64,000 bases of DNA, from the NCBI GenBank assembly GCA_965200495.1, contig CBDAUG010000001.1, forward strand, positions 1,191,406-1,255,405. Reading direction: 5' to 3'. A program made the position numbers and the translations under genes. This document shows, in pieces, positions 6,346 through 22,429 of the stretch (position 1 is its first letter; each line of letters begins with the position of its first letter). A model generated the notes under the pieces. That model had not been told where the DNA came from. It did no database searches and saw only the letters and a list, made by a program, of their open reading frames with translations. This DNA comes from Alphaproteobacteria bacterium. GTDB taxonomy: Bacteria; Pseudomonadota; Alphaproteobacteria; SP197.

Positions 6346-7470
6346 TCATCGCGAGCGCCCGATGAAGGGCAGAGTCGTGACCTCTCCGTCACGCTCGCCG
6401 TCCGGCGTGGCGACCGACACCCGCGTTCCCGGATCCCAGGCGCTGCTTTCCACCATGGCAAGGGCGATGGTGGCGCCGAGGTCGGGTGAAAAGGCCGCGG
6501 ATGTCACCTGTCCGGCCGGTGCGCCTGACACAAGCAGGGGCCAGGGTTCAACACATGCTGGCGCCGCGGCGCCATCGAACCTGATGCCGCGGATCATCCT
6601 GTCGGGACCGCCCGCGTTGCGGATGCGCTCAAGGGCGTCACGGCCGATGAACTCCACGGGTGAGTCCAGATTCACGAAACGCCCGAGGGCACACTCGAAG
6701 GGATTGTTCTCGATTGTCATGTCGTTGCCGTGCGAGAGAAGGGCTCCCTCGATGCGCTCGATGAGATTCGGACAGCCCGGCCCCACGTGAAGATCCCGGC
6801 CGGCGTCGAAAAGCGCATCCCAAAGAGCCTGCCCGATGGCCGCATCGTCGATGTAGATCTCGAACCCGCCCTGCCTGGACCATCCCGAACGCGCCACCAC
6901 GAAGGCATGACCGGCAAAGGGCAGTGCCGCGAAGCCGAAGAAGCGGATGGTGCGCACCTGATCGCCGAGCACTCTCGAGAGGAGGTCGTCTGCCCTTGGA
7001 CCCTGTACGGCGATGGGGCCGACGCCCGGCTCGAAGACGCGTGCGTCGAGATCCAGGCCAAGGGCCAGGCCCTTGCCCCACAGGGCAACGTCGGAATCGG
7101 CGAGGGAAATCCAGAAACGGTCTTCCGCGAGCCGCAGAATGACCGGATCGTTGATCATGCCTCCCGTCTCGTCCACCATTGGCGCATAGGCACACCGGCC
7201 CGGAGCCAACCGGGAAACATCGCGCGACGTCATCAGTTGCACGAGGCGTGCGGCGTGCGGACCGACCACCTCGACCTGCTGTTCGCAGGTCACGTCCCAG
7301 ACCTGAACATGGCGCTTGAGGTGGTGGTAATCCTCCTCGAACCCGCGGAAGAACGTCGGCAGGAGCATGTGGTTGTAGACGGTGAACCCGCCGACGCCCT
7401 GCGCCTCGATACGTGACGTGAACGGTGTGCGGCGGGTGCGGCGCGACATCGAGATCACTGGCTCGTGCAT
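6346..7470 (-). CDS. Aminomethyltransferase-family (GcvT fold) protein, DmdA-like; candidate dimethylsulfoniopropionate demethylase
   Basis: ORF 6346..7923(-) trimmed to the ATG at 7470 (MHEPVISMSRRTRRTPF...), giving about 375 aa, as expected for single-domain GcvT/DmdA proteins. GcvT-fold motifs (FTVYNHMLLP, VQVWDVTCEQQVEV, GGFEIYIDD) and a C-terminal barrel are present. DmdA specificity is inferred from resemblance only. Confidence 0.65.
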   Translation of the reverse strand: MHEPVISMSRRTRRTPFTSRIEAQGVGGFTVYNHMLLPTFFRGFEEDYHHLKRHVQVWDVTCEQQVEVVGPHAARLVQLMTSRDVSRLAPGRCAYAPMVDETGGMINDPVILRLAEDRFWISLADSDVALWGKGLALGLDLDARVFEPGVGPIAVQGPRADDLLSRVLGDQVRTIRFFGFAALPFAGHAFVVARSGWSRQGGFEIYIDDAAIGQALWDALFDAGRDLHVGPGCPNLIERIEGALLSHGNDMTIENNPFECALGRFVNLDSPVEFIGRDALERIRNAGGPDRMIRGIRFDGAAAPACVEPWPLLVSGAPAGQVTSAAFSPDLGATIALAMVESSAWDPGTRVSVATPDGERDGEVTTLPFIGRSR

Positions 7471-7856
7471 GGTCCTGTCCCTGGTGGCCGAGAAGGCCCT
7501 CAATCGTGCTACGCTCGGCCGCCGGTGTATAGTTTTCCTCGACAGGGTCAGGACATGGTGAAACGCGACATCCTGCAGAAACTCTGCGGCAGCAGGGATC
7601 CGGTCCATGATTCCTGCGCCGAAACCTGTGATGCGACAATCTTCACGACACTGAACGACCGGGATCACGGGCTCGTTGTCGATGCCGTGCGGTCCCGTCC
7701 TGGCGACGATGCGAGGGTCCTTGATGCCGGAGCAGGCAGGGGATTTACCCATGTCGGCGCCATGGATGCCGGTGCCCTGGATCTCTCGGCGGGCATGATC
7801 GTCAAACACGAGAGGCTTGATCTGTTTCGCGATGCGCCACGACCGCTTACCGGCGG

Positions 7857-8645
7857 GTGTCGCCGTGCATGGGTGAGCGAGCCATGCGAGCCCATGCCGG
7901 GCGGTATGCCGGAACTCCGGCACAGGACCTGGCTTTTCCGGGTCATGTCGGGGCGTGCGGCAGCGTGACGGGCGCCGACCCGAAACCCGGACGCCCGGTA
8001 TGCGTGTGGGATCGCCCGACGCGGGTGTTTCACTGGGTTCTCGTCGTGCTTTTCGTCGTTTGCTATGTCAGCGGCGACCGTGGCAGGTTCGACATTCACA
8101 TCATGGCAGGAGAGGCCCTGCTGATCCTTGTCGTGGCGCGGATCATCTGGGGGTTCGTGGGCAGCGACACTGCCCGGTTTCGGCACTTCCTGCGCCCCCC
8201 GGGCGAGATCATGGCCCATGTGCGGTCCCTTGGTGAGCGACGGCCCGGCCACGAGGTCGGTCACAATCCCCTGGGAGGGCTTTCCGTTGTCCTGATGCTG
8301 TTCCTTCTCGTCATCCACACGGGTTCCGGGCTCCTTGCGGTGGATGTCGACGGATGGAACGAAGGACCGCTGTCGCATCTCGTGAGTTACGAAGCAGCGC
8401 GCAGTGCCTCGGCTGTTCACGCCATCACGGTTGACATGCTGCTCGTGCTGGTCGCCCTCCACGTGGCGGCTGTCGGATTTCACTGGCTCTACAGGCGCGA
8501 CAACCTCATCGGTCCCATGGTGACGGGCCGCAAGCGCCTTCCTCCGCAACGTGAGGCTCCGCGTCTCGTCGCGGACATCCGTGCCCTTGCCGCCCTTGCC
8601 ATTGCCGCTGCAGTGGTGTGCGCAGTGCTGTCGCTTGCCGGGTAG
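7857..8645 (+). CDS. Cytochrome b561 family (Ni/Fe-hydrogenase-type b cytochrome, CybB/YodB-like)
   Basis: VWDRPTRVFHWVLVVLFVVCYVSGD is the canonical start of the cytochrome b561 bacterial family. Four TM helices with conserved His residues are present. The start is uncertain: ATG at 7857, ATG at 7884, or the GTG near 7966. Confidence 0.7.
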   Translation: MSPCMGERAMRAHAGRYAGTPAQDLAFPGHVGACGSVTGADPKPGRPVCVWDRPTRVFHWVLVVLFVVCYVSGDRGRFDIHIMAGEALLILVVARIIWGFVGSDTARFRHFLRPPGEIMAHVRSLGERRPGHEVGHNPLGGLSVVLMLFLLVIHTGSGLLAVDVDGWNEGPLSHLVSYEAARSASAVHAITVDMLLVLVALHVAAVGFHWLYRRDNLIGPMVTGRKRLPPQREAPRLVADIRALAALAIAAAVVCAVLSLAG

Positions 8646-9122: not shown

Positions 9123-9398
9123 GGCCGGTCCTCCACTTCTCAAGATGTGCAAGAGACTGAAACAGGTCATGTGGAGCCCGCAAGCCCCCGGCGCCGCTGT
9201 GAACGCAATCCGGCTGCCAGGGATCCGTCACGGAGCCTTGCGCAAGGGATCGCAACGAAGCCCGGACTTGACCCGGCATCACGATTGCGTAAATCGTGAG
9301 GCCTGCCCGGGTCACGGTGACATGGACCAGGCGGCCGATACGGTCCCGTGTCATGGGTCACGACAACCGGCTTTTTTTCAGGGCGGGGAGGTGCAGCA

Positions 9399-10844
9399 AT
9401 GAGCAGGGGCACCACTGTCTTTGCCCTTATTGTCTCCGTGCTGCTCATCGCTGTAGCCGGTGTGCTCAACATGCTGGCAAGGCAGAGCGGGGAAGCCGTC
9501 CTCGCCGATGCGGTGACGATGGCAACGGAGATTCGCGACGGCGTACGGGAAGCGGGAGTACCCGCTGTCAACGGAGTCCTGGAGACGGCATCACGCTTGC
9601 GGGCGACCCTTGATGCCGTTTCGGATCCTCAAGAAGACCTTGCCGGCAAGGTTGATGCATTGCGGGAGCGGCTGCAGCGGAGAGAGCGTGCAGCCGAAGC
9701 CCTCGGCGATGCTGATTCGTCGCTTTCCGAGGCGATCGATGTCTGGAAATCGGCGGTTGCCAGAGCCGGGAAGGGGGCATCGGACCTGGCCGGACTCGTG
9801 GAGGGCATGGACCGGTATCTCGCCGGAACCGGCCCTGCCCCGAGCCTTGAATCTGTCCGTTCCCACGGTGATGTGGCGCTTGTTGCGGCAGCAAACAGTC
9901 TGGTGAGCGAAAAGCGCGCTCTGGATGCGCTGCTCGAGGGGCTGGCTGCCAACAGGGTGACCGGTGCAGCCGAGCAACTCGTCATGTCCCTGGAGATCGA
10001 GCGCGGCCGCCGGGCGCTTGTCGCCCGCAACTATGATGATGCGACGGTTGCCGCCTTTGGTGCTCTGGCGCTGGTCTGGGTTCTGCTTGGCATCCGCGGG
10101 CGACGCCCCGGTGAGCCGGCGCAACACAAAGCCGATCCCGTCAGGGGAACACTGCTGATCCGCGGAACGGCGGCAGCGGTGGCGATGCGGGCGCAACGTC
10201 TCGCCGCGCACACCAATGCGCTGAGAGAGACCCGCCAGAGACTTGGAAACGCCATCGTCGAGGCCGGGCTGGACCGGTCGCTCAACGATGATGCTTCCCT
10301 TCACCTGGAAGTGGAAAACCTGGACGGTCATCTCGCCTGCCTGCGCGATGAAACCGGCGAACTGTCGTCTCTGGGCAAGCGCCTGTGGACTCTTGCCGGG
10401 GGGGCAGCGCAGGCGTCGACAGCCAGTATCAACGCGTGCATCAGGGAAGCGCTCGAGGCGATCAGGGCAGGCCACCGGATTCCTGTCATGACGGAACTTG
10501 CCGATGTCGGTGATGTCAGAGGTGTGGCATCCGACATCGTGCTGGCCCTGACGGCCCTGATCGAACGTGTCCTCACGGCGTCGCGGGAAGCAGGAATGGA
10601 CCACAGCGCCATTCGCGTCTTCAGCGCGGCCAGTGATGACCGGGTGCATGTCACGATCACCGGAGGCGCTCCCCTTCCACAGTTCACGGAGCGTACGTTC
10701 AGGCCGTACGGCGCCTCTCACGAGCTGGCACTGGCTATCGCTCTCCTCAGACGTCATGGCGGCAGCGTGATCCTGGGTTCGTCCATCGCCGGGGAGGCCT
10801 CGGCGCGCATATCCCTTGTCGCCGCATCGGGAGATCAGACATGA
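9399..10844 (+). CDS. Membrane-anchored sensor-histidine-kinase-like protein with degenerate (probably inactive) HATPase domain
   Basis: ORF 9348..10844, start at the ATG at 9399, preceded by a GGGGAGG RBS. Topology is TM1 (aa 5-25), a roughly 190 aa extracytoplasmic coiled-coil-rich region, TM2 (about aa 215-235), and a cytoplasmic region with a DHp-like helix (AAHTNALRETRQRL). The CA-like domain has an N-box LTALIERVLT (Asn lost), a G1 box TITGGAP (Asp lost) and a G2 box ASHELALAIA (degenerate). Its stop overlaps the next gene's start (ATGA at 10841-10844). Confidence 0.6.
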   Translation: MSRGTTVFALIVSVLLIAVAGVLNMLARQSGEAVLADAVTMATEIRDGVREAGVPAVNGVLETASRLRATLDAVSDPQEDLAGKVDALRERLQRRERAAEALGDADSSLSEAIDVWKSAVARAGKGASDLAGLVEGMDRYLAGTGPAPSLESVRSHGDVALVAAANSLVSEKRALDALLEGLAANRVTGAAEQLVMSLEIERGRRALVARNYDDATVAAFGALALVWVLLGIRGRRPGEPAQHKADPVRGTLLIRGTAAAVAMRAQRLAAHTNALRETRQRLGNAIVEAGLDRSLNDDASLHLEVENLDGHLACLRDETGELSSLGKRLWTLAGGAAQASTASINACIREALEAIRAGHRIPVMTELADVGDVRGVASDIVLALTALIERVLTASREAGMDHSAIRVFSAASDDRVHVTITGGAPLPQFTERTFRPYGASHELALAIALLRRHGGSVILGSSIAGEASARISLVAASGDQT

Positions 10845-12832
10845 AGGCGCTGCGCTTTCGGGTTCGCAACTATCGCAACATCGAGGACAGCGGCTGGGTA
10901 CCACTCGATCCGGTCACGGTCCTTGTCGGACGCAACGAGTCGGGAAAGACCTCCCTGCTGAAGGCGCTCAACAAGTTCAATCCGGGAACGGCGGAAACCT
11001 TTGACGCTCAGCGCGAATTTCCGCGTGACCGCTATACGCGCGACTATGTCCTTGCCGGTTCCACGGGCGCGGAGTGGCCTGTCTGTTCCATCGAGTTCGA
11101 GATTCCCGACCAGCAGAAACGCGATATCGCAACCCTGCTGGGTCCGGACCGGGCGGTGCCCGAGAAGGTCACCGTCACGCGCCACTACGACGGCTCTCTC
11201 GCATTTTCCTACATGCCTCAGATCGGGGCCAAACCGGCAGGGCCGGATCCTCTCATGGGGGCTCTCGAGGATCTGGCGCTTTCTGACGATTCGCCGCGCC
11301 TGGCTGCATGGGCCAGCGCGTGGCACGATCGGTTGAGCAAGATTGATGACGTCACAAGCGCTGCCGGCCGTGCCGCTCTGGCCGAAATCGACGCAGAGAT
11401 TTCCGGCCTCGGTGATGAACGGCTCGGCGCTCTCGGTGCGATCGTCGCCGCCATGCTGCGGATGCCCTTCGCAAGCAGGGTGATCGATCACGTCAACGCC
11501 CTGGTGGAACGCGAGCTGCCGCGGCTCGTCTACTTCGAGAACTATGGCGTTCTCGACAGTGCCATCTGGCTGCCGGAGATGTTGCGGGGCCTTGAACGCG
11601 AGGAACCGGAACCGCGGTTCCGAACCGCCCTTGCGCTCTTTCGTCATGCGGGCCTTGATCCGCGGGACATCGCGGAACTCGCCTCCCCGGGCAACACGGC
11701 GCCGGGCGAAGACATGCAACGCAAGATGGAGGAGCGGGCCATCCGTCTCAATGCCGCGTCGGTCGACATCAGCCGTCGCTGCAGCGCGTTGTGGTCGCAG
11801 AGGCGCCATCGCATCCGGTATCACGTCGACGGAGATTACTTTCGCATCAGGGTTGCTGACGATTCGCTGGAGGACGTGGAGATCGAGCTGGAATCCCGCG
11901 GCAAGGGTTTCCAGTGGTTCCTCTCGTTTTTCCTCGTCTTTGCCGCGGAGTCGGAGGGCGCCATGGGCGACGCCATCATCCTGCTGGACGAACCCGGCCT
12001 CAGCCTTCACCCGACGGCACAACGTGAACTGCTGGCGTTCTTCGAGCGTTTGTCCGCCGAAAACCAGGTCATCTACACAACGCATTCACCGTTTCTTGTC
12101 GACGGTGATCATCTCGAGCGGGTGCGTCCGGTGTTCGAGGAGGACAACGGGCGTGCCCGCATCCTCAAGGGTTCATGGCCCGCCCATCCCGAAACGGTGT
12201 TCGCGCTCAAGGCGGCTGCCGGATATGCGATGTTCGATTCCCTTGCGCAACGTGGTCGGGCGCTGCTTGTCGAACAGGTCAGCGACGCCTGTTACCTCGA
12301 GGCGCTGTCGCGGCACTGTGGCAGAACGGGGAGGAGCGCGCTGGACGATTCCGTCGACGTGGTGCCCTGTGGCGGTGCGGCGGTGTGCGGTTATCTGGCA
12401 TCCCTCCTCATGGCCGAGCACCGGCGTCCGCTGATCCTCTTCGACGGCACGGACGCCGGGCGCCTGCGGCGGCATGGACTGGTGAAGGGCCTCCTCGACG
12501 AGGGAGACAGTTCGATTGTTCTCCTCGACGAAGCTCTCGGCTGGTCCGGACATGATATGTGCCTCGAGGATCTCTTCGGCGAGAGCATCATCCTCGAGTG
12601 TCTCGGCACTGCGACCGGGATCAGGCTGTCGCTTGCCCATGACGCTGATCGGGCGAGCCTCGTCGGTCGCATCGAGAGCGCAGCAGCGACGGCAAACATT
12701 GCGCTTCCCCGATCCTGGCGGTTGGACACGGCCCTGACGGTGACGTTGTCGCAAGTGTCCCTGCCGGACGACGTCCTCGATTCGGCCTCGCTTCTCTTCA
12801 CGAAGCTTGCCGGTGACGACCAGGGACAATGA
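10841..12832 (+). CDS. OLD-family nuclease-like protein: N-terminal ABC-type (AAA_15/AAA_21) ATPase plus C-terminal Toprim-like domain
   Basis: 663 aa. Walker A GRNESGKTS at aa 30-38. An OLD/AAA_21-type Walker B/signature ILLDEPGLSLHP and an H-loop YTTHSP. The C-terminal about 200 aa has Toprim-like motifs (LLVEQVSD, VVPCGG, ILFDGTD, VLLDEA). Translationally coupled to the upstream gene. Confidence 0.65.
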   Translation: MKALRFRVRNYRNIEDSGWVPLDPVTVLVGRNESGKTSLLKALNKFNPGTAETFDAQREFPRDRYTRDYVLAGSTGAEWPVCSIEFEIPDQQKRDIATLLGPDRAVPEKVTVTRHYDGSLAFSYMPQIGAKPAGPDPLMGALEDLALSDDSPRLAAWASAWHDRLSKIDDVTSAAGRAALAEIDAEISGLGDERLGALGAIVAAMLRMPFASRVIDHVNALVERELPRLVYFENYGVLDSAIWLPEMLRGLEREEPEPRFRTALALFRHAGLDPRDIAELASPGNTAPGEDMQRKMEERAIRLNAASVDISRRCSALWSQRRHRIRYHVDGDYFRIRVADDSLEDVEIELESRGKGFQWFLSFFLVFAAESEGAMGDAIILLDEPGLSLHPTAQRELLAFFERLSAENQVIYTTHSPFLVDGDHLERVRPVFEEDNGRARILKGSWPAHPETVFALKAAAGYAMFDSLAQRGRALLVEQVSDACYLEALSRHCGRTGRSALDDSVDVVPCGGAAVCGYLASLLMAEHRRPLILFDGTDAGRLRRHGLVKGLLDEGDSSIVLLDEALGWSGHDMCLEDLFGESIILECLGTATGIRLSLAHDADRASLVGRIESAAATANIALPRSWRLDTALTVTLSQVSLPDDVLDSASLLFTKLAGDDQGQ

Positions 12833-13077
12833 ACGGCAGATTGATCCCATTCCAGGGTTTCGTCTCTGGAACCCGCCGCTGTTGGTGATGCCGACCGTCT
12901 TCTTCATCGCCAGACCCGTTGCCGATGTCGCGCACGGCACTGCGAGCACCCGGACATTGCCGGCATGGAGGCGGAGTTTGTCGATCGAACGATCCGTTGA
13001 TGCGGTTTGCATTGGCGCCGTGAAGTGGCTATAAGCAGCAATAGCAGGAAACTTCGTTTCATCAGAGGAAACAGACC

Positions 13078-22275: not shown

Positions 22276-22368
22276 CAGTCACTCACGGGGAGCTCCTTGG
22301 GAGCTGAGAGATGCCGAGAGGCATCGACCCGTCGAACCTGATCCGGATCATGCCGGCGTAGGGATTGA
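22276..22368 (+). ncRNA. TPP (thiamine pyrophosphate) riboswitch, THI-box, in the 5' leader of thiB
   Basis: Conserved THI-element core: CACGGGGAGCTCCTTGGGAGCTGAGAG...GACCC...GAACCTGATCCGGATCATGCCGGCGTAGGGA (CTGAGA and the ACCTGATC(T/C)GGATAATGCCAGCGTAGGGA consensus). Downstream, CACCTCCCC can pair with the thiB SD GGAGG, which would be a translational expression platform. Confidence 0.8.
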
Positions 22369-22429
22369 GGAGACGGTCTTTCCCCCACCAGAAAGGCACC
22401 TCCCCGGCACCGGCGCCGAAGGAGGAACC

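What the first reader, a model, noticed from the sequence alone, without database searches (positions are those of the whole stretch)
9399..12832. Translationally coupled pseudokinase-sensor plus OLD-family ATPase/Toprim nuclease: candidate undescribed defense-type module
Two genes share an ATGA stop/start overlap at 10841-10844, so they are almost certainly co-translated. Gene 1 has the full topology of a sensor histidine kinase, but every ATP-binding box of its HATPase domain is substituted. It cannot be a conventional kinase. Gene 2 is an OLD-family protein carrying an AAA_15/AAA_21 ABC-type ATPase and a C-terminal Toprim-like module with E and DxD motifs. Known OLD-family systems partner with helicases (Gabija GajB, class 2 OLD), DUF4435 proteins (PARIS) or HNH proteins (Septu). 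A membrane-embedded dead-kinase sensor partner is not one of the described architectures. The pair sits between unrelated housekeeping genes (cytochrome c' and a glutamate-synthase-like operon), like an inserted accessory cassette. A plausible model is that the membrane sensor detects an envelope or phage cue and licenses the nuclease.
Basis: partly seen in the sequence, partly recalled or inferred. Interest (0 to 1): 0.85.

Follow-up and report, generated by a model that had tools for sequence, protein, structure and literature searches.

The report
Dead-kinase membrane sensor plus eroded OLD ATPase
Two overlapping genes encode a membrane sensor shaped like a histidine kinase that has lost its catalytic motifs, and an OLD-family ATPase-nuclease with an intact ATPase but a partly eroded nuclease site; the pair has been inherited vertically at one fixed chromosomal site in a clade of uncultured Alphaproteobacteria, so it looks more like a domesticated sensor-ATPase module than a mobile anti-phage cassette.

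Summary
Both genes are real: gene 1 at 9399-10844 and gene 2 at 10841-12832, with an ATGA stop/start overlap.

**Gene 1** is a two-TM protein with a DAHL-like periplasmic domain and a DHp+CA histidine-kinase fold.
- It has no phospho-acceptor His.
- The N, G1, G2 and G3 ATP boxes are all destroyed.
- A graded series of homologues runs from intact to dead.

**Gene 2** is an OLD-family protein; its best structural match is Thermus scotoductus OLD (TsOLD).
- The ATPase motifs are invariant.
- There is no DxD motif. The TsOLD D433 equivalent is T537 and the S478 equivalent is C574.
- Both positions are conserved acidic residues in 33/33 (D537) and 32/33 (E574) relatives that lack the kinase partner.

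**The pair is not a recent insertion.**
- All 13 related Alphaproteobacteria MAG loci have the same order: cyt b561, cyt c', gene 1, gene 2, glutamate-synthase-like genes.
- GC content is not anomalous and divergence tracks the flanking genes.
- dN/dS is 0.28 for gene 1 and 0.14 for gene 2.
- Relatives carry a third, coupled gene (DUF1045, a 2H phosphoesterase). The window has deleted it, leaving a 19-codon stub.

**A second lineage** carries CCP_MauG, an intact DAHL-kinase-like gene and an OLD gene inside a Tad pilus cluster.

No paper in the held library (two keyword searches) and no PADLOC model describes a kinase-OLD pairing.

**Verdict:** a new architectural variant of the OLD family. It is probably an exapted sensor-gated ATPase. 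A defence role is possible but is weakened by this evidence.

The parts
9267..9295 (+). Promoter-like element in the divergent cyt c'/gene 1 spacer: CTTGAC, 17 nt, TAAATC. It overlaps an inverted repeat, TCACGATT..AATCGTGA (9279-9299).
   Evidence: The block is conserved in 12 type-a loci and in L015. The consensus scan did not call it, so its role as a promoter is inference only.
9399..10844 (+). Gene 1: a 481-aa membrane sensor with a histidine-kinase-like core that has lost its catalytic motifs.
   Evidence: ORF and sequence. No direct profile hit. hhalign to a DAHL+HATPase_c homologue gives probability 99.9 and E 2.7e-37. Fold search returns only histidine kinases. dN/dS is 0.28.
9411..9479 (+). 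TM1 of gene 1 (residues 5-27).
   Evidence: Hydrophobic stretch TVFALIVSVLLIAVAGVLNMLA, nearly invariant in the family. Predicted helical. Topology is inferred from sequence.
9480..10043 (+). Periplasmic all-helical, DAHL-like sensor domain of gene 1 (residues 28-215). It is the fastest-evolving part of the protein.
   Evidence: It aligns to the DAHL domain (Pfam E 4e-29) of the L016 homologue. The direct Pfam DAHL hit is only E 0.42, though in the matching register. dN/dS is 0.35.
10044..10097 (+). TM2 of gene 1 (residues 216-233), followed by a basic RGRR patch.
   Evidence: Conserved hydrophobic block across types a, b and c.
10137..10397 (+). DHp-like helical hairpin of gene 1 (residues 247-333), without a phospho-acceptor His.
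   Evidence: Helices 247-288 and 299-333 match the DHp of solved kinases. No His is conserved at the candidate H-box. By motif register, that position is Ala in types a and b and Gly or Arg in type c (by-eye register against the CckA/FixL-type hits).
10419..10823 (+). CA (HATPase_c)-like domain of gene 1 (residues 341-475) with all nucleotide-binding boxes lost.
   Evidence: The N box reads LIERVL (Asn to Arg). G1 reads IT--GGAP (Asp lost). G2 is deleted. GQGT has become AGEA. Type c retains IIENS, DNGDG, GIGLAL and GQGT. The domain is still under constraint, with dN/dS 0.21.
10841..10844 (+). ATGA stop/start overlap between gene 1 and gene 2.
   Evidence: Sequence. An identical junction occurs in 11 orthologous loci.
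10841..12832 (+). Gene 2: a 663-aa OLD-family ABC ATPase with a Toprim domain.
   Evidence: AAA_15 8e-26 and AAA_21 1e-19. Best Foldseek hit is 6P74 TsOLD at 3.5e-16, followed by GajA, PtuA and the retron-Eco8 OLD. A profile alignment to 6P74 runs through the Toprim E-G-x-x-D and CGG motifs. dN/dS is 0.14.
10946..10948 (+). Walker A lysine K36 (GRNESGKT). Walker B D383/E384 lie at 11987-11992 and H-loop H415 at 12083-12085.
   Evidence: All are invariant in the 44 aligned family members.
12236..12640 (+). Toprim domain of gene 2 (residues 466-600) with a partly eroded metal site.
- Kept: E478 (12272-12274), D482 (12284-12286), D535 (12443-12445) and E576 (12566-12568).
- Lost: T537 (12449-12451) replaces the second Asp of DxD, and C574 (12560-12562) replaces the E/S metal-B ligand.
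   Evidence: Register to TsOLD E377 and D381 comes from the HMM alignment; D431 and D433 are placed by counting on from its end, and S478-x-E480 is matched by sequence pattern only (residues from PMC7049728). Among 33 relatives without a kinase partner, D537 is Asp in 33 and position 574 is Glu in 32. Among 11 kinase-associated members, both are lost in 10.
12829..12888 (+). 19-codon stub (MNGRLIPFQ...) of a deleted third gene, a DUF1045/2H phosphoesterase. Its start overlaps the gene 2 stop as ATGA.
   Evidence: Relatives have a 214-230 aa DUF1045 gene that starts VNGRFAVYY with a GTGA overlap. Window homology stops at 12842 and resumes at about 12942-13004, against about 940 bp in L004.

Best explanation
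This is a vertically inherited, lineage-restricted operon of uncultured Alphaproteobacteria. It couples a membrane sensor to an OLD-family ABC ATPase.

**Shown**
- Gene 1 is a TM / DAHL-like periplasmic domain / TM / DHp / CA protein. It descends from an ATP-binding, His-less, histidine-kinase-like partner and has since lost every nucleotide-binding box.
- Gene 2 keeps a fully conserved ATPase engine. Its Toprim site lacks two of the six metal ligands used by characterised OLD nucleases.
- The two genes are translationally coupled. They were joined once in evolution and have stayed together in three diverged lineages.
- In relatives, a 2H phosphoesterase (DUF1045) is a third coupled gene. The window has deleted it.

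**Inferred mechanism**
- The pseudokinase acts as a membrane-anchored scaffold and allosteric switch. A periplasmic cue is read by the DAHL-like domain, possibly relayed by the neighbouring periplasmic haem proteins (cytochrome c' here, CCP_MauG in the sister lineage).
- The cue is passed through the DHp-like helices to the bound OLD ATPase and gates its ATP-driven dimerisation cycle.
- The output is at most weak nicking or nucleic-acid binding, not robust degradation.

Overall it reads as an OLD protein recruited from a defence-type ancestor into a host sensory or maintenance role. This is comparable in spirit to archaeal class 5 Cran1 with its membrane partner.
For: **Domain identity**
-.

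**Graded decay of the CA boxes**
- Type c is intact, type b partly decayed, type a dead.
- In type c the kinase-like partner evolves as slowly as OLD (63-67% versus 63-69% identity).
- Between types a, b and L015 it evolves much faster than OLD (40-47% versus 60-70%).

**Toprim ligands**
- D537 and E574 are conserved in 33/33 and 32/33 relatives without a kinase partner, and lost in 10/11 kinase-associated ones.
- K36, D383/E384 and H415 are invariant.
- P2 Old D455A, the equivalent of T537, abolishes in vivo activity (PMC7049728).

**Single origin**
- Kinase-associated OLDs are monophyletic in an NJ tree (199/200 bootstraps).
- Their partners are homologous.

**Vertical inheritance**
- Gene order is identical in 12 species-representative genomes plus L024.
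- Divergence is parallel across the genes and GC is normal.

**Purifying selection**
- It acts on every domain, including the dead CA domain and the Toprim domain.

**Precedent**
- A non-defence OLD with a conserved membrane-protein partner exists (PMC12796447).
Against: - No experiment supports any step of the mechanism.
- Four of the six Toprim ligands remain, and D538 sits next to T537, so residual or altered nuclease activity is possible. TsOLD single-site triple mutants still nick DNA (PMC7049728).
- The nearest relatives without a kinase partner sit in type I RM operons and defence-like islands. A defence role could have been retained.
- 'Core' status is not proven. Most related loci were found through gene 1 or gene 2 themselves. 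The independent GATase-anchored scan found only one same-clade locus.
- Physical interaction between the two proteins, and any link to the haem proteins, are inferred only from gene order.
Confidence: 0.45

Rival explanations
1. One reading: an active two-gene anti-phage system. The membrane pseudokinase senses an envelope or phage cue and licenses the OLD Toprim nuclease to cut phage or host nucleic acid (abortive infection or direct interference).
For: - OLD-family proteins characterised in bacteria are defence effectors (PMC10568477).
- The closest homologues without a kinase partner (about 50% identity) lie after hsdS or hsdR, or beside other defence-like genes.
- The PADLOC 'Old' model covers their Toprim domain.
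- E478, D482, D535 and E576 are retained, as is the whole ATPase.
- Both genes are under purifying selection.
Against: - The chromosomal position is fixed and inheritance is vertical across every related locus recovered. There is no island, no mobile element and no GC anomaly.
- The kinase-associated clade has specifically lost D537 and E574.
- Gene 1, and the DUF1045 gene of relatives (L007 copy), have no PADLOC match.
- The sensor faces the periplasm, and its kinase chemistry is gone.
Confidence: 0.27
2. A decaying relic. The operon is losing function in a shrinking genome, and the two ORFs are intact only because decay is recent.
For: - The window has deleted the third gene and degraded the upstream methyltransferase.
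- The window contig is 2.45 Mb, against 3.9-4.7 Mb for the complete-chromosome relatives.
- L008 shows a frameshifted gene 2, and L012 a frameshifted DUF1045.
- Catalytic motifs are lost in both proteins.
Against: - Gene 1 is intact in all 13 lineages examined. Gene 2 is intact in all but L008 (apparent frameshift), and is cut by the contig end in L006.
- dN/dS is 0.14-0.28, with the ATPase lobes at 0.08.
- The ATPase motifs are invariant.
- The motif losses are old and shared across lineages. They are not specific to the window.
Confidence: 0.1
3. The kinase-like protein of type c is a direct Ser/Thr/His kinase or an ATP sensor for the OLD partner (partner-switch logic as in SpoIIAB/RsbW). 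In types a and b only the binding function survives.
For: - Type c has intact N, G1, G2 and G3 boxes but no conserved acceptor His.
- No response regulator is encoded beside any version.
Against: This is purely inferential. No phospho-site has been identified on the OLD proteins. It is compatible with the best explanation rather than exclusive of it.
Confidence: 0.15

Closest known systems
Class 1 OLD nucleases (P2 Old; Thermus scotoductus OLD, PDB 6P74)
   Same: [quoted passage not shown]
- 6P74 is the best structural match and the best PDB sequence match.
- The E-G-x-x-D and CGG motifs align in register.
   Different: - Class 1 genes are stand-alone. This one has a conserved, translationally coupled partner.
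- The equivalents of TsOLD D433 and S478 are Thr and Cys.
- It is about 130 aa longer than TsOLD.
Class 5 OLD, Cran1 of Sulfolobales (PMC12796447)
   Same: An OLD-family protein that is vertically conserved in one lineage, sits in a conserved putative operon with a membrane protein, and is apparently not a defence gene.
   Different: - Cran1 is archaeal, and its partner is an uncharacterised membrane protein, not a kinase-like sensor.
- Cran1 is an active nickase.
- No phylogenetic link was tested here.
PARIS (AriA/AriB), Gabija (GajA/GajB), Septu and retron PtuA systems
   Same: An ABC ATPase of the AAA_15/AAA_21 type combined with a nuclease module. The PADLOC ATPase models of these systems hit gene 2 at 1e-13 to 1e-26.
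   Different: - There is no DUF4435 partner, helicase, HNH protein, reverse transcriptase or ncRNA nearby.
- The matches cover only the ATPase.
- The partner here is a membrane pseudokinase.
Sensor histidine kinases of the FixL/CckA/ZraS type, and pseudo-kinases such as DivL
   Same: - Two-TM sensor topology and a DHp+CA fold.
- The type c homologue aligns to ZraS, CckA and FixL CA domains.
- DivL (4Q20) is among the fold hits. From general knowledge, it lacks the acceptor His.
   Different: - There is no acceptor His and no ATP-binding boxes.
- There is no response regulator.
- The coupled output is an OLD ATPase.

Membership tests
OLD family (ATPase-Toprim) | N-terminal ABC-type ATPase with Walker A, Walker B and H-loop | tested here: met
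   AAA_15 8e-26 and AAA_21 1e-19. K36, D383/E384 and H415 are invariant.
OLD family (ATPase-Toprim) | C-terminal Toprim fold | tested here: met
   Foldseek alignment to 6P74, GajA and the Eco8 OLD over 600+ columns. The HMM alignment to 6P74 runs through LVEGxxD and CGG. Homologues at about 50% identity hit PF20469. Direct Pfam hit on the window protein is only E 0.06.
OLD family (ATPase-Toprim) | Complete two-metal ligand set: E, D, DxD and S/E-x-E (TsOLD E377, D381, D431, D433, S478, E480) | tested here: not met
   E478, D482, D535 and E576 are present. T537 stands for D433 and C574 for S478 (PMC7049728).
OLD family (ATPase-Toprim) | Metal-dependent nuclease activity | not testable with these tools
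   Needs biochemistry.
Class 1 OLD | Stand-alone gene in variable neighbourhoods | tested here: not met
   The overlapping partner gene is conserved, and the neighbourhood is fixed, in all 13 related loci.
Class 2 OLD / Gabija | Adjacent UvrD/PcrA/Rep-like helicase (GajB) | tested here: not met
   The neighbours are cyt c', gene 1 and GATase, with DUF1045 in relatives. There is no helicase.
Class 3 OLD / retron | Adjacent reverse transcriptase and msr/msd ncRNA | tested here: not met
   None of the Pfam-scanned neighbours from 5.4 to 18.5 kb is a reverse transcriptase. The only Rfam hit in the window is a TPP riboswitch at 22276.
Class 4 OLD / PARIS | Split AriA ATPase plus AriB DUF4435 Toprim | tested here: not met
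   ATPase and Toprim are fused in one ORF. There is no DUF4435 gene.
Two-component sensor histidine kinase | Transmembrane sensor plus DHp and CA fold | tested here: met
   hhalign to a DAHL+HATPase_c homologue.
Two-component sensor histidine kinase | Conserved phospho-acceptor His in the DHp H-box | tested here: not met
   No His is conserved in DHp helix 1 in any of the three types. Candidate positions are R/A (types a, b) or H/Q/N and G/R (type c). The register against canonical H-boxes was judged by eye.
Two-component sensor histidine kinase | N, G1 and G2 ATP-binding boxes (Pfam HATPase_c) | tested here: not met
   No HATPase_c hit for the window protein, and the boxes are substituted or deleted. 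Met in type b (4e-11) and type c (2e-18) homologues.
Two-component sensor histidine kinase | Cognate response regulator | tested here: not met
   No receiver-domain gene occurs in the neighbourhood of any version.
DAHL extracytoplasmic sensor domain (PF19443) | Match to the Pfam model | tested here: inconclusive
   Direct hit E 0.42, at 10.7 bits against a cutoff of 38. The region does align over its full length to the DAHL domain (4e-29) of the L016 homologue.
Known defence systems in PADLOC-DB 2.0 | Specific model match for every component | tested here: not met
   Gene 2 hits only generic ATPase portions. Window gene 1 has only a marginal local match to PADLOC C3a168 (E 0.007, 13.9 bits). 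The type c kinase and DUF1045 have no match.

The most novel reading that the evidence does not exclude
This may be a sixth kind of OLD-family system. An OLD ATPase-Toprim protein would have been captured once by a His-less, DAHL-type, histidine-kinase-like membrane sensor and then domesticated. The result would be a periplasm-to-cytoplasm signalling device whose output is an ABC-ATPase cycle rather than phosphotransfer. Both original chemistries, kinase and nuclease, would have been progressively discarded, and periplasmic haem proteins (CCP_MauG, cytochrome c') would act as the upstream sensors.
Probability: 0.3. Interest if true: 0.75.

Novelty: new variant of a known kind. Interest (0 to 1): 0.55.

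Why it matters
OLD-family proteins are treated almost exclusively as anti-phage nucleases. Their classes are defined by partner genes: none, a helicase, a retron, or a split Toprim.

This locus adds a partner type that has not been described: a membrane-spanning, kinase-shaped sensor. It also offers a natural series in which ATP binding by the partner and metal binding by the Toprim domain are lost stepwise, while the ABC ATPase stays frozen.

If the module has been exapted, it would be a bacterial counterpart to archaeal Cran1. It would also be an example of a defence gene turned into host signalling hardware.

If it still defends, it would be a rare case of an immune effector gated from the periplasm and fixed in a lineage's core genome. 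Either outcome can be tested with the type c, b and a proteins.

Tried and rejected
- **Direct profile scans of gene 1.** Pfam, NCBIfam and PADLOC gave nothing usable. phmmer against PDB gave one spurious hit.
- **RecF/SbcC-type repair ATPase for gene 2.** Rejected. Only the Walker A stretch matches RecF/SMC, while the full-length fold and the Toprim motifs match OLD.
- **Recent horizontal insertion.** Rejected on synteny, co-divergence and GC.
- **Retron, Gabija or PARIS membership.** Rejected because the partners are missing.
- **The L003 upstream ORF as the same partner family.** It is HsdS.
- **Empty-site test using the GATase gene as anchor in metagenomes.** Of 80 loci, only one came from the same clade, and it carries the pair. 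The others lack the cyt c' synteny altogether, so the test is uninformative.
- **Look-ups of P0026, P0002 and P0025.** None is on record, so the window's closest relative and its sample could not be examined.
- **First NJ script.** It timed out and was redone with numpy.
- **Exhaustive representative search.** Types a, b, c and the other close homologues were not resolved as separate top hits (the best was a single 703-aa representative), so it gave only the background frequency of ligand loss: position 537 is Asp in 102 of 118 representatives.
- **Plasmid search.** Only homologues at or below 32% identity, annotated as AAA family ATPase.

Full report
**1. Observation**

The + strand carries two ORFs, 9399-10844 (481 aa) and 10841-12832 (663 aa). 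ATG at 10841-10843 overlaps TGA at 10842-10844. The same CAGACATGAAGG junction is present in 11 orthologous loci. The coupling is therefore real and conserved.

**2. Gene 2**

*Family assignment*
- Pfam gives AAA_15 (8e-26) and AAA_21 (1e-19). The OLD-like TOPRIM model scores only E 0.06.
- PADLOC and NCBIfam match only ATPase segments of the AriA, Old, GajA and PtuA models.
- The protein belongs to a very large family of about 700 aa proteins (4715 hits). Many members at about 50% identity carry PF20469, OLD-like_TOPRIM.
- An AlphaFold model (pLDDT 76) matches T. scotoductus OLD 6P74 best (E 3.5e-16, 623 columns), followed by GajA, PtuA and the retron-Eco8 OLD.

*Register to TsOLD*
- A family profile aligns to 6P74 so that LVEGxSD falls exactly on TsOLD E377 and D381.
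- Counting on from the end of that alignment puts D535 and D537 on D431 and D433. The E574-x-E576 match to S478-x-E480 rests on sequence pattern only (residue roles from PMC7049728).

*The Toprim site is incomplete*
- The window protein reads E478-Q-x-x-D482, D535-G-T537-D538 and C574-L-E576.
- Among 33 aligned relatives that lack the kinase partner, E478, G479, D482, D535 and D537 are invariant, and position 574 is Glu in 32.
- Among the 11 kinase-associated members, D537 and E574 are each lost in 10, and G479 in 9.
- K36, D383/E384 and H415 are invariant everywhere.
- Across 118 diverse cluster representatives, position 537 is Asp in 102.
- In P2 Old, the equivalent D455A mutation abolishes in vivo activity.

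**3. Gene 1**

*Fold and homology*
- No profile library recognises it.
- Its family is tiny: 28 clusters among 5.8 billion proteins, even with a profile query.
- The model (pLDDT 68) has long N-terminal helices, a helical hairpin and an alpha/beta domain. All top 50 Foldseek hits are DHp+CA regions of histidine kinases.
- hhalign of the family against the protein upstream of a 52%-identical OLD homologue (L016) gives probability 99.9 and E 2.7e-37 over 480 columns. That protein has bona fide DAHL (4e-29) and HATPase_c (2e-18) domains.

*A decay series*

| Type | Size | N box | G1 | G2 | G3 |
|---|---|---|---|---|---|
| c | 611-620 aa | IIENS | DNGDG | GIGLAL | GQGT |
| b | 527-528 aa (HATPase_c 4e-11) | N kept | D-N-G kept | lost | GQGT kept |
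| a (window) | 481 aa | Asn to Arg | Asp lost | deleted | AGEA |

- L015 is further truncated.
- No His is conserved in DHp helix 1 in any type. Even the ATP-binding versions are therefore not canonical autophosphorylating kinases.

**4. Context and inheritance**

*Synteny*
- A scan of species-representative genomes found 12 loci, all uncultured Alphaproteobacteria MAGs. A metagenome scan anchored on the downstream GATase gene added one more (L024).
- All of these loci show the order GCV_T, methyltransferase, cyt b561, cyt c' (divergent), gene 1, gene 2, a variable 0.9-3 kb segment, then GATase and GltS-like genes. Three loci end on a contig or flank boundary before GATase.
- Window flanks were confirmed by Pfam.

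*Divergence and selection*
- Identity to the window is 62-90% for gene 2, 37-79% for gene 1, 91-96% for GltS and 49-84% for cyt c'. The same loci are the most divergent for every gene.
- GC is 0.63-0.65 across the pair, the same as the flanks.
- Pairwise dN/dS among nine type-a orthologues:

| Region | dN/dS |
|---|---|
| Gene 1 overall | 0.28 |
| Gene 1 CA-like domain | 0.21 |
| Gene 2 overall | 0.14 |
| Gene 2 ATPase lobes | 0.08 |
| Gene 2 Toprim | 0.14 |

- This is not an inserted cassette.
- Caveat: most loci were found through the pair itself, so universal presence in the clade is unproven.

**5. A third gene**

- In the 12 related type a/b loci that extend past gene 2, a DUF1045 gene follows gene 2 directly. 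In the type-a loci and L014 its start overlaps the gene 2 stop (GTGA, ATGA in L014). It carries two HxTL motifs typical of 2H phosphoesterases (Pfam 2.7e-55).
- The window keeps only a 19-codon stub at 12829-12888. Homology to relatives ends at 12842 and resumes near 12942-13004.
- The ancestral operon is therefore three genes. The window lineage lost the third, and L012 has it frameshifted.

**6. A sister lineage (type c)**

- Five loci (L016, L020, L021, L022 and L023, the last carrying the identical OLD protein as L022) place the kinase-like and OLD genes inside the same Tad pilus cluster. The three with full upstream sequence read T2SSE, T2SSF (x2), CCP_MauG, DAHL-kinase-like, OLD (755-768 aa), prepilin peptidase, RcpC, with an ATGA overlap between CCP and the kinase-like gene.
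- Their OLD and kinase-like proteins are each 63-69% identical to one another.
- In an NJ tree, all kinase-associated OLDs form one clade (199/200 bootstraps). The association therefore arose once.
- Other family members sit after hsdS or hsdR, or next to protease/helicase genes near mobile elements. The PADLOC 'Old' model covers their Toprim domain.

**7. Interpretation**

*Best-supported reading*

An OLD gene of defence-type ancestry became coupled to a His-less, kinase-like membrane sensor. It has since been inherited vertically. The ATPase is under strong constraint, while the Toprim metal site, and later the partner's ATP site, eroded.

The pseudokinase most plausibly tethers the OLD ATPase and gates it allosterically in response to a periplasmic signal. 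Periplasmic haem proteins recur beside the sensor gene (cyt c' here, CCP_MauG in type c). That is suggestive but untested.

*Rivals*
- An active defence system remains possible, because four ligands and the whole ATPase persist and the relatives sit in defence contexts.
- Decay towards a pseudogene is unlikely given the selection data.

**8. Literature**

OLD classes 1-4 are defined by partners: none, a helicase, a retron, or a split Toprim. Class 5 (Cran1) is an archaeal, non-defence OLD with a conserved membrane-protein partner (PMC10568477, PMC12796447). That work also reports 11 uncharacterised clades. Searches combining OLD/Toprim with histidine kinase, DAHL, pseudokinase or Tad pilus found no paper describing this pairing.

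**9. Verdict**

This is a new architectural variant of a known family.

Noticed in passing
window 12829-12888, and 12843 to about 13003: There is a 19-codon stub of a DUF1045/2H-phosphoesterase gene whose start overlaps the gene 2 stop. Relatives carry the full gene. The window has a deletion of about 0.8-0.9 kb here.
   Followed up: yes
window 7465-7965 (+): A 167-aa ORF retains a VLDAGAGRG SAM-binding motif but has no Pfam hit. It shows only fragmentary similarity (37% in the longest piece) to the 208-aa methyltransferase that is 72-76% conserved among relatives. It is probably a degraded gene. Together with the 2.45 Mb contig size, this hints at genome reduction.
   Followed up: partly
window 9267-9299: A conserved CTTGAC, 17 nt, TAAATC promoter-like block overlaps an 8-bp-arm inverted repeat (TCACGATT / AATCGTGA) in the divergent spacer between cytochrome c' and gene 1. 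It could be a shared operator.
   Followed up: partly
L016 3208-8292; L020 1025-6282; L022 4158-9268: A three-gene unit (CCP_MauG, DAHL+HATPase_c kinase-like, OLD) is embedded between tadC-like and prepilin-peptidase genes of a Tad pilus cluster. CCP and the kinase-like gene overlap by ATGA.
   Followed up: partly
L008 about 9723-9760: The gene 2 orthologue appears frameshifted: two tblastn segments in different frames, and the ORF stops at 168 aa. This is either a pseudogene or an assembly error.
   Followed up: no
L012 11446-12082: The DUF1045 orthologue is split into two frames, and the ORF is only 8 aa. This may be a second, independent loss of the third gene.
   Followed up: no
L004, L007, L008, L012, between DUF1045 and GATase: The cupin_7 gene, intact in L010, L011, L014, L015 and L024, is reduced to 27-40 aa C-terminal fragments here. 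An acyl-CoA dehydrogenase gene is present in only some loci. The segment downstream of the operon is a hotspot of gene loss.
   Followed up: partly
L003 4535-6004; L017 1-6004: OLD homologues at about 50% identity overlap by 4 nt the end of hsdS (L003) or hsdR (L017) in type I restriction-modification operons. L017 also carries an Abi_C gene inside the operon.
   Followed up: partly
window 22276-22382 (+): A TPP riboswitch (Rfam RF00059, 79.7 bits). It is the only Rfam hit in the window, and no tRNA genes were found.
   Followed up: no
P0176 (representative library hit, 667 aa): A distant OLD homologue shows the same substitution pattern as the window protein (S479, T537, S574). It could mark another kinase-associated or nuclease-eroded lineage, but its genomic context could not be retrieved.
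   Followed up: no
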